Part shown: in pieces, positions 13,640 to 50,657 of the stretch
Layout of the letters: each line of letters opens with the position of its first letter
How positions within the stretch are numbered: position 1 is the first letter of the stretch
NCBI RefSeq assembly: GCF_009914755.1
Contig: NC_060925.1
Strand: one strand, 5' to 3'
Length of the DNA stretch: 64,000 nucleotides
DNA from: the human T2T-CHM13v2.0 reference genome, Homo sapiens
The notes under the pieces: generated by a model
What the model was told of the DNA's origin: nothing
Databases searched by the model: none
The model's input: only the letters and a program-made list of their open reading frames with translations
Position numbers and translations under genes: made by a program

Positions 13640-14391
13640 TTTTTTTAACTTTTAAGTTTGGAGGTACATGTGCAGTTTTGTTACACAGGTAAATACATGT
13701 CATTCCTGGGAGTCATTGCACACATTATTTCATCACCCATGTATTAAGCCTAGTATTCATTAGGTATTTTCCCTGATCCTCTCCCTCCTGTCACCTTCCA
13801 CCCTCTGACAGGCCCTAGTGTGTGTTGTTCCCCTCTATATGTCCATGGGTTCTCATCATTTACCTGTCACTTCTAAGTGAGAATATGCAGTATTTGGTTT
13901 TCTGTTCAAGTGTTAGTTTGCTAAGACTAACAGCCTTCTGACCATCAGAGAAACTCAAATCAAACCACAGTGAGACACCATCTTACACCAGTGAGTGGGG
14001 TTATTACTAAAAACCCAAGAAAATAACAGATACAAAGGTTATGGATAAAAAGGAATGCTTATACACTGTTAGTGGGAGTGTAAATTAGTTGGGCCATTGT
14101 AGAAGACATTGTGGCGATTCCTCAAAGACTTAAAGACAGAAATACCATTTGAACCAGCAATCCCATTACTGGGTATATACCCAAAGGAATATAAGTTTTG
14201 TTTTGTTGTAAAGACACGTGCACGTGTATGTTCAATGCAGGACTGTTCAATGTAGGAAAGATAGGGAATCAACCTAAATGCCCATCAATGATAGACTGGA
14301 TAAGTAAAATATGGTACATATACACAATGGAATACTATGTGGCCATAAGATTAACAAGATCATGTCATCTGCAGGGACATGGATGGAGCTT
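13640..14391 (-). mobile_element. 5'-inverted, truncated L1PA (roughly PA13-16): 3' UTR on minus (13640-13938), ORF2 end inverted on plus (13939-14391)
   Basis: Minus part ends at ttagtttgctaagactaacagccttc; plus part ends at ggacatggatggagct, adjacent positions in L1 consensus; degenerate TSD gaattaagta / gaactaagca. Confidence 0.88.
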
Positions 14392-15049
14392 GAACTAAGC
14401 ACTAAGGAAAAATGTTTAAAACTAATCCCAAACTAAATTTTTGGTGTCTTAATAGATTACTGTAATAAAGAGCATTGTAGTCATCATATTCTGCATATTC
14501 CAGGCCAAAATTTTCCCCATAGACATATTGTCTTCATTGCAGAATTTTTAACTTTTGAAGAGCATACGCTCAAGTTTTCTGTGGTGCAGAATACCAGAAT
14601 TACTTTGAAAACTGTTTTTTCTAAGTATAATTGTTATCTCGACCAAAACTACAAGCAAGAGTTTGTTTTGTTCTGTTTTGTCTCTGGATCCATTGATTAT
14701 TATGACTAATCCTTATAGGTTGGCAATAAATATTTATTTTGAGTAAATGTGATGAGGTGATACTCAAAACTCTGAAGTCTCCTTGACAATCACTTTTCTA
14801 AACACATTCTATCAATCACTCATCTTCCAATCCTCAAGTGTTTATGATCTGTGATTGATCTTTGACCAAGCAGTGAACATAGTAATGTGTTTATATTAAT
14901 TCACCTAATCATAAGTTGACTTTTTCATGGATTTGGGGGTACTTAAAAGTTTTATGGAATTTACATGTAGCTTCTAAATATGATTTTTCTAACTTCAAAA
15001 TTCATGTGGAATAGTAAAAACAATTACTATGTCTAAGAGACACATTAAT

Positions 15050-18910: not shown

Positions 18911-18967
18911 AAATACAGACATGTTTAGATTCAAAGATTCAAGCTCAAGTTTACCAACATATTACTA

Positions 18968-20614
<1,647 letters not shown>

Positions 20615-36119: not shown

Positions 36120-36310
36120 TGAAAAGATCATAGGCTTTAGAGTCAGAGATCTTGGTTGGAATCTCATCGTGGGTATTTATTATCAGATTGAGACCATATT
36201 ATTTAACCTCTCTAACCCTACGTTTTCTTTCCTAAAAAATGATAATAAGTTTTATATTGCAGGTTTGAGGATTGAATTAAATAATGTGTAATGTGCATGG
36301 TTATCAAATA
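36120..36310 (+). mobile_element. MIR
   Basis: aggctttagagtcagagatcttggttggaatc...ttatttaacctctct...tgaggattgaattaaataatg. Confidence 0.75.
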
Positions 36311-43426: not shown

Positions 43427-43699
43427 TTTTTTATTATTATTATTATTATACTTTAAGTTTTAGGGTACATGTGCACATTGTGCAGGTTAGTTACATATGT
43501 ATACATGTGCCATGCTGGTGCGCTGCACCCACTAACGTGTCATCTAGCATTAGGTATATCTCCCAATGCTATCCCTCCCCCATCCCCCGACCCCACCACA
43601 GTCCCCAGAGTGTGATATTCCCCTTCCTGTGTCCGTGTGATCTCATTGTTCAGTTCCCACCTATGAGTGAGAATATGCGGTGTTTGGTTTTTTATTCTT
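43427..43699 (-). mobile_element. L1HS pre-Ta-like 3' end (ACG, with A at the 6015-equivalent site)
   Basis: cccactaacgtgtcatctagc = reverse of gctagatgacACGttagtggg; gtgcacattgtgcaggttagttac; tatactttaagttttaggg; near identity to L1HS consensus. Confidence 0.88.
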
Positions 43700-43888
43700 C
43701 ACCACTTCTTCTAACATTGCATTCTTGAGTGTTTCTTTATGTGGTAATGTCCTTATTTCAGTTTAATTTTTGAAAGATAATTTTTCCGGACATAAGATTC
43801 AACATTGAGCATTTTTTATCCTTTTTTTTCTTGCAGCTCTTTGACTAGGTCATTCCTCTACTTTCTAGCTTCCATCGTTTTTGATAAG

Positions 43889-44218
43889 AAGTGAACTAAA
43901 CCAGGGACAAAGAAAACAAATGCTGCATGTTCTCACTTATGAGAGGGAGCTAAACATTGAGTACATACGGACACAAAGAAGGAAGAAACAGACACAAGAG
44001 CCTACTTAAGGTTGGAGGCAGGAAAGAGGATAGGGATTTAAAAATTACTTATTGGGTACTATACTTATTACCTGAGTGGTAAAATAATCTGTACACCAAA
44101 CCCCTGTGACATGCAACTTACCTATATAACAAACATGCACACATACCCCTGAACCTAAAATAAAAGTTAAAAATAAAATAAAATAAAATAAAATAAAATA
44201 AAATAAAATAAAATAAAA
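43889..44218 (+). mobile_element. L1PA15/16-like 3' UTR with (TAAAA)n tail
   Basis: ggagctaaacattgagtacatacggacacaaagaagg...ccaaacccctgtgacatgcaa...gaacctaaaataaaagtt. Confidence 0.9.
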
Positions 44219-45170: not shown

Positions 45171-45211
<41 letters not shown>

Positions 45212-45303
45212 GTGGAGACAGGGTTTAACAATGTTGCTGAGGCTGGCATCGAACTCCTGGGTCAAGGTATCCAAGTAATAGCAATTACTTTGCACCAATA
45301 TAA
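45098..45303. mobile_element. MADE1 (Hsmar1-derived MITE) containing a 146-bp Alu-derived insert
   Basis: Left TIR ta|ttaggttagtgcaaaagt, right TIR gcaattactttgcaccaatataa; insert 45128-45273. Confidence 0.88.
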
Positions 45304-46599: not shown

Positions 46600-47539
46600 A
46601 CTCAGATGAGAAGTACAGAATTATGGTTTAATCTGACTTATTTAGAGAGCACAAATAAAGTGTCTCCTTATTCATGGATTTAAAACATTGTCTTTAACTT
46701 AGAGCTTTAGAAAAGGCAAAATTGTTTAATGGATAAAATTGAGAAATATGCTGTAACTAAACGATTTCTCTATGACAGCAATTACTTGAGTCTTAAAAAG
46801 GAGCGTAATGGAAAGAGTAAAGTTTGCAGCCAGGCACACAACAGTTTGAATCTGAGCTCTACCCTTAGAAATAATGTGGCCTTGAGCAATTACATTTATC
46901 TATAGCAAACACTCAATTCTTATATCACACCACTGCATTGTTTGAAAACTCCAAATGGGTTCTGGATGGAATGATGAGCTTTACTCTCTTGTTTTGCTTC
47001 ACATATTCTTCTGTCCTGTTTTTTATTGTTCTGTCTTCAGTACTACAGTTTTGTTTGCTTTTATTTATTTTTATCCCCTTATAGATCTATATTCCTTATA
47101 ACATTTTTTTTGCCCCCAACAAGATATCAGGAAGCACTATAAACTTCCATTTGGAGTCACAGATCAACAGACACACATTAAATTGTTCAGAATCTACTAA
47201 TAGCATAAACGTTATTCAGACGTACCTCTAACATTCCTTGGGCTGTGCAAGGGCACAAACTGAGGCCAGCATATGTCTAAAAAATTTCCATAAGACTAAG
47301 AAATTTAAAGTAATAAGTAAAGCTATTAAACTATTAAAATTGATTTTTTACTTAGATTTTGACAAATAGACTTTTATTCCACCAAAATAGACAAATATGA
47401 TTAAAGCTATGGTTTTATAAAACTGTATGTCTGAAAAATATCAAATGACTAAATGCAACAAATACTGCATATGTCTTTGTAATCTGTATTATTTAGAAAA
47501 TGCTAAAATAATAGAATCTAAGTATTTTTAAGCTTAATT

Positions 47540-47735
47540 TTTAAATTATTTTTTATTATACTTCAAGTTCTGGGATACATGTGCAGAACGTGCAGGTTCA
47601 TTACATAGGTATACATGTGCCATGGTGGTTTGCTGCACCCATCAACCTGTCATCTACATTAGGCATTTCTCATAATGCCATCACTACCCTTGACCCCCAC
47701 CCTCTGACAGGCCCCAGTGTGTTCCTATTTCTCCA
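47540..47735 (-). mobile_element. L1PA7-like 3' end joined directly to its own 5' truncation point
   Basis: aagttctgggatacatgtgcagaacgtgcagg...acaggccccagtgtg|ttcctatttctcca. Confidence 0.9.
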
Positions 47736-47951
47736 TCTAATTTTGCAAGCATGTCATTTTATAAGACTTTTTTCTTCACTAAAATTTGTTTGTCTTACCT
47801 TTTAAATATAGTGACAATTGTCATATTAAATGCAAACTTATCATGATGTATACTTTTAACATCCCTCATTTGTATGGATCTTTCCAAGATCCCAATTTTT
47901 ATTTATATTTATGTAAGTATCTTTTTAATTTTCTTTTTCTAAAAATGTGTG

Positions 47952-48082
47952 CCCCAAAATGATAAGTATATGAGGTAATGCCTACATAAGTTAGCTTGAT
48001 TTATCATTCCATAAGGTGTACATATTTCAAAACTACATGTTGTACATGATAACATATATATTTTTATCAATTAAAATTAATA
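47952..48082 (+). mobile_element. L1MA-like 3' end
   Basis: aaatgataagtatatgaggtaatg...ttagcttgattt..cattcca...catgttgtacatgataa. Confidence 0.8.
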
Positions 48083-48406
48083 CTTTTATAAAAAGAAAAT
48101 TATAAAAATCAGAAAATTATTAAAAATTATTGTAAAAATCAGCCTTGTGACCGAAGAAAATACTGAAATTCTCATAGTATGTGGAGGCCTGAAATATATT
48201 ACCAAAGACAGGTGAACAATAACAAAAACAAAAAAGTGACTTTGGGAACCACTACTGTAGCATTTAACTAGTCCCCAAACAATCAAGATAACAACAACAA
48301 AATGACAAAAATATGTTTGTTATTTAGAAGGAGCATCAAGATTTCAGAAAAATAAGGTAGTTGGTCAAGCCTAGTAGCCCATTTAGGCCCAGGGAAGAAG
48401 GATACC

Positions 48407-48860
48407 TGTGTTTTGTTCCCCTCCGTGTGCCCAGATATTCTCATTGTTCAACTCCCACTTAGGATTGAGAACATGCTGTGTTTGGTTTTCTGTTCCTGTG
48501 TTAGTCTGCTGAGAATGATGGTTTCCAGCTTCATCCATGTCCCTGCAAAGGACATGAACTCATTCTTTTTTATGACTGCATAGTATTACACAGTGTACAT
48601 GTGTCAAGTTGTCTTTATCCAGTCTATCATTGATGGGCATTTGGTTGGTCCCAAGTCTTTGCTATTGTGAATAGTGCTACAATAAACATACGTGTGCATG
48701 TGTCTTTATAGTAGAATGATTTATAACCCTTTGGGTATATACCCAGTAACGGGATTGCTGGGTCAAGTGGTATTTCTGGTTCCAGATTCTTGAGGAATCA
48801 TCACACTGTCTTCCACAATGGTTAAACTAATTTACACTCCCATCAACAGTGTAAAAGTGT
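48407..48860 (-). mobile_element. L1PA7-like internal fragment, the piece missing from 47540-47735
   Basis: Starts tgtgttttgttcccc, ends caacagtgtaaaagtgt; no poly(A), no TSD. Confidence 0.92.
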
Positions 48861-50238
48861 AGGCTTTGGGCATCAGGAAACCTGGGTATAATGAAGATTA
48901 TCACATTACATTTTTAATTGCTTTATCTCCACAGTTAGTAATAATCAGAAATATCTAAATACTCAAACCTCCACTGTTCATGAGGCTAAGAAAAAAAACC
49001 AGTAAAATGTTTAGTGCCATGAATAATTAATTGGCTAATGACATGCACTAGTGCTTTGTAATGAAAGAAATAATAAGTAGAAATGGCCATAATTATTAGT
49101 TATAGTAATAAAAAATAATAAATTTCAAGTAAGCTAAACTAGAAGCACTATTACATTTTGCCAAATGTAAACTTCCAGAATATGGAGAATATTTTTTTCA
49201 CTCTGAGTAATTTTGATAAATCATGTATTTTGATAGGGAAATATGTATCTTTTTTTTTTCCTTCTACAAAATTTCAGAGACAATAGCTATTAGGATAAAT
49301 TAAATTAATTGTATCCTTCATAACTAAATATTTCACCTACAGAGAATTTCTAATTGGTTTCATATATCTTAAGAACAGATTGTCCATTGGCTATAATTGT
49401 TATCTAAATTGATAGCCAACATTAAAGACTCCCTTACACATGAAAGTAAAATCCTTGAGAAGCAATATTTTAACTAAATTTGCACTGTTCATGAGTAGAA
49501 AAAAATCAATTCAGTTTTCTGAGCAGAACATAAGAATTCTTCCCAAGAACTGTTAAATGTGACACATTCATATAATTAATGTTTTATAAAAGAATTTCAC
49601 AGCAGACACTTGAGGCTATGCAGCTTTATTATCTCTGGATATAATGTACCACATTCTTTGCTTATTACTTTAGGTTTCAGATCTTCTTGTAATGCAGACT
49701 ATTACCCTCAGGCCATAAACAGTTGTGCATGATTGCATAGGCTTAAAATCCCCATGATCAACCACTTTTTTTGATTTTTCAACTGAATTTTGTAAAACCT
49801 TCACCATGCTTGATACTTCATTTTTCCTTCCAAATGTCTGTTATTCCTAGATTTGTAATTTTATCTTATCTGGATCTGTCCGTCTTTCCATTTCTATAGC
49901 TTATCTCCCCGTTTAGCTCCTTATTAACTCATTCTTAGATAATAGAAACTTACCCTAACTTGTAGGTCTATCTCAAGTATCTTTTATCTGTGATACATCA
50001 TATCCACAATCTCCCTGATGCATGACTTTCCTCTATTTCTGAAAATAGAATGAAACAATAGCAATAGTAAAACATGTGTAGTTCTTTATTTCCTAAATGG
50101 AGACACTTTAAAGTTCCCAAACCCGAATTTTCCACAATCTGAATTTAATTTGTATTTCAAAAGTTATCTTGCAAAGCATCCATTAATAAATCTTTGGTCA
50201 CTAAATATCTGCAGCATGTTTTATGACATGCACCAGAG

Positions 50239-50657
50239 CAGGGTGCCCAACCTCCAGGCCATGGATGTGAACCAGCCTGTGGCCTGCTGGGAACCAGGCC
50301 ACACAGCAAGAGGTGAGGAGTGGGCAAGGGAGCATTACCACCTGAGCTCCACCTCGTGTCAGATCAGCGATGGAATTAGAATCTTTTTTTTTTTTTTTTT
50401 GAGACAGAGTCTCACTCTGTTGCCCAGGCTGGAGTGCAGTGGTGCAATCTTGGCATTAGATTCTTATGGGAGGGTGAAACCTATTGTGAACTGCGCATGC
50501 AAGGGATCTAGGTTGCACATTCCTTATAAGAATCTAATGCCTGATGATCTAAGGTGGAGCAGCTTCATCCTGAAACCACCCCGTCACTCCCCCATATGTG
50601 AAAGATTTTTCTTCCATGAAACTAGTCCCTGGTACCAAAAATAGTGGGGACCACTGC
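50239..50657 (+). mobile_element. MER1B split by a truncated Alu
   Basis: cagggtgcccaacctccaggccatgg...gtcagatcagc...ttccatgaaactagtccctggtaccaaaa..gtggggaccactg. Confidence 0.9.
50384..50454 (-). mobile_element. Severely 5'-truncated Alu (about 54 bp plus tail)
   Basis: T17 gagacagagtctcactctgttgcccaggctggagtgcagtggtgcaatcttggc; TSD tggaattagaatctt / tggcattagattctt. Confidence 0.93.

What the first reader, a model, noticed from the sequence alone, without database searches (positions are those of the whole stretch)
47540..48895. 454-bp internal L1 segment relocated ~690 bp downstream (block swap A-C-B-D)
The L1PA7-like element at 47540 jumps at 47717-47722, through gtgt microhomology, from its 3' UTR (ggccccagtgtgt) to tcctatttctcca. 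The sequence that belongs between those points is found at 48407-48860, same strand, starting tgtgt..tgttcccc and ending aaaagtgt. The intact L1 at 19130-19605 in this window shows the normal order. Removing the block rejoins ggaagaaggatacc with aggctttgggcatcaggaaacctgggt, which resembles a MIR 5' end, so the acceptor site was probably once continuous. There is no TSD or poly(A). Possible routes: excision and local reinsertion, multi-step template switching, or tandem duplication followed by two reciprocal deletions.
Basis: partly seen in the sequence, partly recalled or inferred. Interest (0 to 1): 0.8.

Follow-up and report, generated by a model that had tools for sequence, protein, structure and literature searches.

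The report
Two neighbouring DNA blocks swapped places
A short, dead L1 retrotransposon copy and the host DNA beside it have had two adjacent blocks exchanged without inversion or loss, a rare but already named kind of small rearrangement with no sign of function.

Summary
A minus-strand, 5'-truncated L1PA-type 3' end runs from its T-rich tail (47534-47554) through 47722. It then continues with only 13 bp (47723-47735) that in other L1 copies follow directly after the 454-bp block now at 48407-48860. That block has the same orientation and lies 684 bp further on.

Coordinates interlock to the base. The A end and B start overlap by 5 bp in 23 of 26 reference copies. The B end abuts the 13-mer. 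Each piece and each junction is single-copy in the genome.

So the event swapped an L1 block with the L1's 5' tip plus its flank: A-B-c-D-E became A-c-D-B-E.

This matches the "adjacent segment swap" class of complex structural variant (PMC9510932). One balanced three-junction event is by far the best fit.

I cannot decide without primate orthologues whether it struck the DNA after insertion (about 0.5) or arose during L1 integration (about 0.3). The gtgt microhomology may have been only 2 bp, because one base sits in a CpG-decay site. MIR continuity at the acceptor is unproven. Interest is low to moderate.

The parts
47516..47533 (+). Candidate left copy of the L1 target-site duplication (ATCTAAGTATTTTTAAGC)
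   Evidence: Local alignment with 47735-47750, which abuts the L1 5' tip. Not significant on its own: 405 of 2000 shuffles reach the score.
47534..47554 (-). Degenerate A-rich tail of the L1, T-rich on the + strand
   Evidence: Read directly. It lies between the candidate TSD and the L1 3' end.
47555..47722 (-). Block A: last ~168 bp of an L1PA-type 3' UTR
   Evidence: Identity is 90-93% to the best 39 genomic copies, and every match stops at 47722.
47719..47722 (.). Junction J1 microhomology gtgt, shared by the end of A and the end of B
   Evidence: It is 4 bp as read today. The second base is a CpG-decay position in the family, so possibly 2 bp at the time of the event.
47723..47735 (-). Block c: 13 bp of L1 (TCCTATTTCTCCA) that normally follow block B; the 5'-truncated tip of the element
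   Evidence: No L1 similarity beyond it.
47735..47750 (+). Candidate right copy of the target-site duplication (ATCTAATTTTGCAAGC)
   Evidence: see left copy. Its place directly at the L1 tip is the main argument for it.
47736..48406 (.). Block D: 671 bp of host DNA, the original 5' flank of the L1, now between the two L1 parts
   Evidence: No match to L1 copies. 48130-48406 is unique in the genome at the tool's sensitivity.
47952..48108 (+). Older interspersed repeat inside D; looks to me like an old L1 3' end (by eye)
   Evidence: 39 other genomic matches at 74-82% identity, all confined to this stretch. It is older than blocks A and B.
48407..48860 (-). Block B: 454 bp of the same L1, displaced 684 bp. 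No poly(A), no flanking repeat
   Evidence: The first 7 nt read TGTGTTT against TGTGTGA in the family: 34 of 40 copies have GA at the last two, 0 of 40 have TT. These 7 nt could instead be host bases.
48861..48887 (+). Start of block E: a 27-nt stretch resembling the MIR 5' region
   Evidence: mean best local score against 30 MIR copies is 10.2, versus 6.3 (sd 0.7) for shuffles, and 0 of 300 shuffles reach it. The MIR profile gives no hit.

Best explanation
A conventional, 5'-truncated L1PA 3' end of about 650 bp (tail-A-B-c) inserted on the minus strand next to host blocks D-E. Later, one balanced rearrangement with three junctions exchanged the two adjacent blocks B (454 bp) and c+D (684 bp), without inversion and without loss. 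The order A-B-c-D-E became A-c-D-B-E.

The most economical DNA-level route is breakage at three points (A|B, B|c, D|E) and rejoining in the wrong order. One staggered break, filled in on both ends, would give the 5-bp tgtgt overlap. Serial template switching by one nascent strand (A, skip to c-D, back to B, on to E) gives the same product.

The product is a neutral fossil in a gene-poor region; nothing suggests function.

Shown: the order, orientation, base-level interlock and single-copy state. Inferred: that it was one event, that it acted on DNA after insertion, and which repair route made it.
For: - Interlocking L1 coordinates: (23 of 26 copies).
- All parts and the A|c junction are single-copy, so there is no net duplication or loss beyond about 5 bp.
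- A and B fit one element. B is 87.8% identical on average to 12 copies chosen only for likeness to A. Those copies are 89.4% alike among themselves in B and 92.0% in A, against 90.7% for the window's A. Both parts therefore sit 1.3-1.6 points below the mutual values.
- The element has a T-rich tail and a candidate TSD directly at the 13-mer, as expected if the L1 once ended at c next to D.
- Swaps of adjacent segments of similar size exist as human polymorphisms: 3 'Tantrans' events among 1052 reconstructed complex variants, one spanning 657 bp (PMC9510932, section 16 and passages read).
- A balanced outcome follows naturally from break-and-rejoin, because each breakpoint is used twice (inference).
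Against: - No outgroup or population allele with the unswapped order could be examined, so timing is not shown.
- Three breaks within 1.14 kb, with both fragments kept and neither inverted, is an unlikely draw.
- Under template switching, the second and third switches must return within 0-5 bp of earlier leave-points, which random switching does not predict.
- Two of the three junctions (D|B, B|E) show no microhomology as parsed. The third may have had only 2 bp.
- The B|c breakpoint lies only 13 bp from the L1's 5' end. That is about a 2% coincidence for a random break in a 650-bp element (my arithmetic), and it is easier to explain if the event belonged to integration.
- The TSD is not statistically supported (405 of 2000 shuffles).
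Confidence: 0.5

Rival explanations
1. The structure arose during the retrotransposition event itself. One L1 RNA was reverse-transcribed from two primers on the same DNA strand.

A 3'-OH at a nick or break 671 bp inside the future 5' flank (the end of D) primed internally and copied block B, much as an endonuclease-independent patch would. The normal poly(T)-primed cDNA copied A and met the stretch already copied (or the RNA end left after RNase H). It then jumped to the next free RNA, copied 13 nt (c), and was joined to the target with a TSD.
For: - It explains the exact interlock without coincidences, because each RNA stretch is copied once.
- The 5-bp overlap (or 2-nt gap, if the first 7 nt of B are host bases) at the A/B boundary resembles the short internal duplications and deletions at the two-primer boundary in twin priming. 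Reported figures: 17% duplications, 66% deletions, medians 22 and 14.5 bp (bioRxiv 10.1101/2024.08.27.596794, passages read); 22 of 32 short deletions and 10 of 32 duplications (PMC11702581, passages read).
- Block B alone has the hallmarks of endonuclease-independent L1 insertions: no TSD, no poly(A), a non-EN-like site (PMC1920257, abstract and sections 11-12).
- Only 13 nt were copied after the jump, which fits a failing reverse transcription.
- The TT at B positions 6-7, seen in 0 of 40 family copies, would be explained if TGTGTTT is the host primer end that annealed by 5 nt to the RNA.
- Template-switching reverse transcription and local rearrangement at L1 integration sites are documented (PMC11702581, sections 7 and 13).
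Against: - I found no description of a same-strand, non-inverted split insertion in the library searched. Searches were made, and only the listed papers were opened.
- It needs a second 3'-OH on the same strand 671 bp away at the right moment.
- As parsed, the D|B junction has no terminal base pairing with the L1.
- The A|c junction is unique in the genome, so there is no sign of recurrence.
Confidence: 0.3
2. Stepwise origin. Either a tandem duplication of B-c-D was followed by two deletions, or B was first copied into the D|E site and the source copy was deleted later.
For: Each single step is a common mutation type.
Against: The deletion ends would have to coincide with the duplication ends within 0-5 bp at two or three places. 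That is roughly (5/1000)^2 for independent events (my estimate). No remnant of a second copy of B, c or D exists.
Confidence: 0.05
3. Assembly artefact in T2T-CHM13.
For: Not tested; no reads are available here.
Against: The region is 1.36 kb, and its L1 parts are at most 93% (A) and about 91% (B) identical to any other copy. D and E are unique. Reads should therefore place unambiguously, and single long reads would span all three junctions (inference).
Confidence: 0.02
4. Two unrelated L1 insertions that happen to be complementary.
For: Block B by itself looks like a separate endonuclease-independent fragment.
Against: Both ends of B coincide with the deletion ends in the neighbouring element to within 5 bp, in the same orientation, 684 bp apart. 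That is roughly (10/6000)^2 by chance (my estimate). Both parts show the same relative divergence.
Confidence: 0.01

Closest known systems
Adjacent segment swap ('Tantrans') class of complex structural variants (Mako paper, PMC9510932)
   Same: Two neighbouring segments of a few hundred bp exchange order in the same orientation with no copy-number change. It is rare: 3 of 1052 reconstructed complex variants in three genomes, with one example of 657 bp.
   Different: Those are polymorphisms called against a reference. This one is in the reference assembly itself and is recognised only because an L1 supplies the expected order. Its population state is unknown. The authors attribute their cases to homology-mediated inaccurate replication. 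Here microhomology is weak: 2-4 bp at one junction and none at two.
Twin-priming 5'-inverted L1 insertions
   Same: The cDNA comes in two pieces whose L1 coordinates abut with a few bp of overlap or gap. A textbook case lies in this same window: 13809-13926 forward plus 13938-14394 inverted, with an 8-bp gap in L1 coordinates.
   Different: Here the second piece is not inverted and is separated from the first by 671 bp of host DNA. Twin priming as described cannot give this.
Endonuclease-independent (non-classical) L1 insertions, Sen et al. 2007 (PMC1920257)
   Same: Block B lacks a TSD and poly(A), is truncated at both ends, and sits at a site unlike the L1 endonuclease target (paper abstract and sections 11-12).
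   Different: B is not an independent insertion, because its ends match the gap in the neighbouring element. 15 of the 21 published loci carry extra nucleotides, and the 21 loci together lost 31,009 bp of target DNA. Neither feature is evident here, and target loss cannot be tested.
Serial template switching (FoSTeS/MMBIR) and small balanced break-and-rejoin rearrangements
   Same: Several junctions are created in one event within about 1 kb, with short or no microhomology.
   Different: Replicative switching typically leaves copy-number gains. This product is balanced to within 5 bp. The name and typical outcomes of these mechanisms are from my own knowledge plus the Mako discussion.

Membership tests
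Adjacent segment swap (complex structural variant class) | Two adjacent segments exchanged in order, both keeping their orientation | tested here: met
   L1 coordinates: A 18969-19142, then 19590-19606, then host D, then B 19138-19593, all on the same strand.
Adjacent segment swap (complex structural variant class) | No copy-number change of either segment | tested here: met
   The whole region, D, E and the A|c junction are found once in the genome. The A/B overlap is only 5 bp.
Adjacent segment swap (complex structural variant class) | An allele or orthologue with the unswapped order exists | not testable with these tools
   No primate or human population sequence is available. The order is inferred from other L1 copies only.
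Adjacent segment swap (complex structural variant class) | The outer flank (D to E) was contiguous before the event | tested here: inconclusive
   E starts with a 27-nt MIR-like stretch (0 of 300 shuffles). The end of D is not MIR-like (75 of 300), and the MIR profile gives no hit.
Canonical endonuclease-dependent L1 insertion (element A+B+c) | 3' poly(A) tail | tested here: met
   A degenerate T-rich tract at 47534-47554 lies next to the L1 3' end on the + strand.
Canonical endonuclease-dependent L1 insertion (element A+B+c) | Target-site duplication flanking the element | tested here: inconclusive
   Candidate at 47516-47533 and 47735-47750, correctly placed, but 405 of 2000 shuffles score as well.
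Twin-priming 5'-inverted L1 | The 5' segment is inverted relative to the 3' segment and directly adjoins it | tested here: not met
   B is on the same strand as A and 684 bp away.
Endonuclease-independent L1 insertion (block B alone) | No TSD, no poly(A), 3' truncation | tested here: met
   (530 of 2000 shuffles reach the best flank match). B ends inside the L1 at both sides.
Endonuclease-independent L1 insertion (block B alone) | An independent retrotransposition event | tested here: not met
   The ends of B fit the gap in the neighbouring element to within 5 bp.
   No repeat library is available. No B column separates 18 A-like copies from 19 A-unlike copies. About 12% pairwise distance to family members fits a mid-aged primate L1; the age scale is recalled, not computed.

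The most novel reading that the evidence does not exclude
One L1 RNA was copied from two same-strand primers during a single retrotransposition. The usual poly(T)-primed cDNA skipped a 454-nt stretch that had already been copied from a second 3'-OH 671 bp inside the flank. One insertion was thereby deposited in two places, in the same orientation. This would be a non-inverting counterpart of twin priming that couples endonuclease-dependent integration with patching of a nearby nick.
Probability: 0.3. Interest if true: 0.6.

Novelty: new member of a known kind. Interest (0 to 1): 0.3.

Why it matters
The L1 acts as a built-in ruler, so a small balanced swap that would be invisible in unique DNA can be read to the base with all three junctions. 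That makes it a clean specimen of a rare rearrangement class and a possible test case for mechanism: break-and-rejoin, template switching, or an undescribed two-primer outcome of L1 integration. It has no evident effect on genes. The nearest annotated features are lncRNAs and pseudogenes tens of kb away, according to the hub's table. Its value is as an example and as a search pattern for a genome-wide scan, not as a discovery in itself.

Tried and rejected
- **Earlier findings.** A parallel second call failed on a missing field.
- **D+E against window and loci.** nhmmer with a script-joined D-end+E against the window and fetched loci gave no hit.
- **Genome searches with flanks.** Searches with E (48861-49010) and with D-right (48130-48406) returned only themselves. 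They gave no help on what the flanks are.
- **MIR core motif.** A search in the window at up to 3 mismatches gave 0 hits.
- **First MIR seed set.** Only 4 copies, too diverged upstream of the motif.
- **MIR profile from 30 copies.** It found a MIR at 36123-36288 (E = 3e-5) but nothing at E or at the joined D+E, even with filters off and E up to 1e6. One search ended in a script error because there was no hit to compare.
- **Subfamily test by diagnostic columns in B.** 0 discriminating columns between 18 A-like and 19 A-unlike copies. The test has no power.
- **TSD tests.** Not significant for the element (405 of 2000). None for block B (530 of 2000).
- **Mako supplements.** A search for 'Tantrans' and 'swap' covered only the first 12 of 36 files and found nothing. 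The remaining files, including the dot-plot figure of the published swap, were not seen. They might show whether those swaps lie in repeats.
- **Insertion of c+D into an L1 with a 5-bp TSD (tgtgt).** Rejected, because the 13-mer c continues B exactly.
- **Excision as a circle and reinsertion.** Rejected, because tgtgt/gtgt is present three times now against twice in an intact copy.
- **A B-deleted L1 subfamily.** Rejected, because the A|c junction is unique.

Full report
**What is there**

The window is human T2T chr1:188.42-188.48 Mb (hub note; one search gives the same coordinates). Reading 47300-49100 and comparing it with the rest of the window shows an L1 3' end on the minus strand.
- On the + strand a T-rich tail (47534-47554) is followed by block A (47555-47722). 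A aligns to the in-window L1 fragment at 18969-19142 (78.7%).
- Block B (48407-48860, 454 bp) aligns to 19138-19593 (86.2%) on the same strand.
- A second BLAST with the in-window L1 as query adds 47719-47735 = 19590-19606 at 100% over 17 bp. This is gtgt plus a 13-mer, block c (47723-47735).
- That search finds no further L1 sequence of this element between 47736 and 50000.

The order in an ordinary copy is A-B-c. Here it is A-c, then 671 bp of other DNA (block D, 47736-48406), then B, then E (from 48861).

**Is it more than chance?**

I fetched L1 copies from the same genome. Seven came with the first search. Twenty were chosen only for similarity to A. Twenty were chosen from the best B matches.
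- In 23 of the 26 copies that carry both parts, the A hit and the B hit overlap by exactly 5 bp (tgtgt). The three exceptions are trimmed local alignments.
- In the 40-copy alignment, B ends at AAAAG-NN-T and is followed by the 13-mer. By my count, 21 of 40 copies carry it letter for letter, and most others differ by one or two bases.
- The 26-nt A|c junction occurs once in the 3.1-Gb assembly at up to 3 mismatches.
- None of the 39 best genomic matches to A continues past 47722.
- The whole 1356 bp matches only itself.

Two independent fragments fitting one another within 5 bp at both ends, in the same orientation and 684 bp apart, is not a credible coincidence.

**One element or two?**

Best genomic matches are 90-93% for A and about 91% for B. 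Both figures are inflated by selection, so I used the unselected part as the fair measure.
- B is 87.8% identical on average (84.8-90.5%) to 12 copies chosen only by likeness to A.
- Those copies are 89.4% alike among themselves in B and 92.0% in A.
- The window's A is 90.7% like them.

Both parts are thus 1.3-1.6 points more diverged than the family's mutual values. That fits one element of one age.

A diagnostic-column test had no power. No B column separates 18 A-like from 19 A-unlike copies. I cannot confirm the label L1PA7 because no repeat library is available. A pairwise distance of about 12% suggests a mid-aged primate L1, of the order of 30 Myr by the neutral rate I recall.

**What lies between and around**

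- D has no similarity to the L1 copies.
- Its stretch 47952-48108 is an older repeat with 39 other matches at 74-82%.
- Its right part is unique in the genome at the tool's sensitivity.

D is therefore old resident DNA, the original 5' flank of the L1.

A candidate target-site duplication sits at 47516-47533 and at 47735-47750, the latter starting at the last base of c. The position is right, but in this AT-rich context the alignment score is reached by 405 of 2000 shuffles. It remains a candidate.

Block B has no flanking repeat (530 of 2000 shuffles) and no A-rich tail.

- The first 27 nt or so of E resemble the MIR 5' region in 30 fetched MIR copies (0 of 300 shuffles).
- A profile built from those copies finds a MIR at 36123-36288 but nothing at E or at a script-joined D+E.
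- The last 40 nt of D are no more MIR-like than chance (75 of 300).

Continuity of D and E before the event is plausible but not shown.

**The junctions**

- *J1 (A|c).* The end of A and the end of B share gtgt today. The second base of that tetramer at the end of B is a CpG-decay position in the family. In the 12 copies chosen by A alone it reads GCAT 5, GCGT 4, GCCT 1, GCTT 1, GTGT 1. The homology may have been only GT when the event happened.
- *J2 (D|B).* There is no microhomology as parsed. B begins TGTGTTT where the family has TGTGTGA. At the last two positions 34 of 40 copies have GA and 0 of 40 have TT. Either two adjacent substitutions occurred next to the junction, or these 7 nt are host bases that offered 5 nt of homology. 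In the second case the L1 has a 2-nt gap there instead of a 5-bp overlap.
- *J3 (B|E).* Blunt.

**Mechanism**

Stepwise routes require deletion ends to coincide with duplication ends at two or three places, and they leave no trace of second copies. These routes are a tandem duplication followed by two deletions, or a dispersed copy followed by deletion of the source. I give them about 0.05.

A single event is the parsimonious reading. Within that, a balanced outcome follows naturally from three breaks rejoined in the wrong order, with one staggered break filled in to give the 5-bp overlap. Serial template switching yields the same product, but it must return to earlier leave-points within a few bases.

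Swaps of this size exist as human polymorphisms. The Mako paper names 'adjacent segment swap' and reports 3 among 1052 reconstructed complex variants, one spanning 657 bp. The authors ascribe them to homology-mediated inaccurate replication (PMC9510932, passages and section 16). Because the class is documented at the DNA level, I rank a post-insertion DNA event first, at about 0.5.

**The main rival: an event during integration**

If a second 3'-OH on the same strand, 671 bp into the flank, primed internally on the L1 RNA and copied B, the poly(T)-primed cDNA would have to jump over that stretch to reach c. It managed only 13 nt there before being joined to the target.

This explains the interlock without coincidences. 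It also explains:
- the short overlap or gap at the A/B boundary, as seen at twin-priming boundaries;
- the endonuclease-independent look of B;
- the closeness of the B|c point to the L1 tip;
- possibly the odd TT at B positions 6-7.

Against it, I found no description of such a same-strand split insertion. My searches were made, and only the listed papers were opened. It also needs a second primer at the right time and place. I give it about 0.3. It is the most novel reading left open.

Assembly error (about 0.02) is unlikely. The pieces are diverged from all other copies, and the flanks are unique. No reads could be checked.

**Verdict**

Its block 'C' is 13 bp of L1 plus host flank.

The structure is a fossil adjacent-segment swap, a new member of a known, rare kind. 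It has no indication of function. It is a neat base-resolved specimen and a useful template for a genome-wide search.

On present evidence it is not highly surprising, and I score interest at 0.3. Primate orthologues would settle the timing, and with it the mechanism.

Noticed in passing
window 13809-14394: An older L1 with a classical 5' inversion (twin-priming pattern). The forward part at 13809-13926 matches in-window L1 coordinates 19128-19246. The inverted part at 13938-14394 matches 19713-19255. There is an 8-bp gap in L1 coordinates at the inversion point, and identity is about 76%.
   Followed up: partly
window 43431-43975: Another L1 3' end at 43431-43693 (87% to the in-window L1, coordinates 18962-19222). 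About 200 bp further on lies a short inverted piece at 43902-43975, covering coordinates 19157-19230. That overlaps the forward part by about 65 bp. It could be an inverted duplication or two separate elements.
   Followed up: no
window 36123-36288: A clear MIR copy, found by the MIR profile built here (E = 3e-5). It is the only significant MIR hit of that profile in the window.
   Followed up: no
window 20450-20476: A run of about 26 T inside the body of the in-window L1 fragment. BLAST also shows long T runs near 45173-45213 and 50382-50401. This looks like a homopolymer expansion within the element.
   Followed up: no
It still serves well as an order reference.
   Followed up: partly
loci L013-L030 and L031-L050, end of block B: The tetramer at the end of block B in this L1 family is a CpG hotspot. 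It reads GCGT, GCAT or GTGT in different copies. Such sites can inflate or hide apparent microhomology at old breakpoints.
   Followed up: yes
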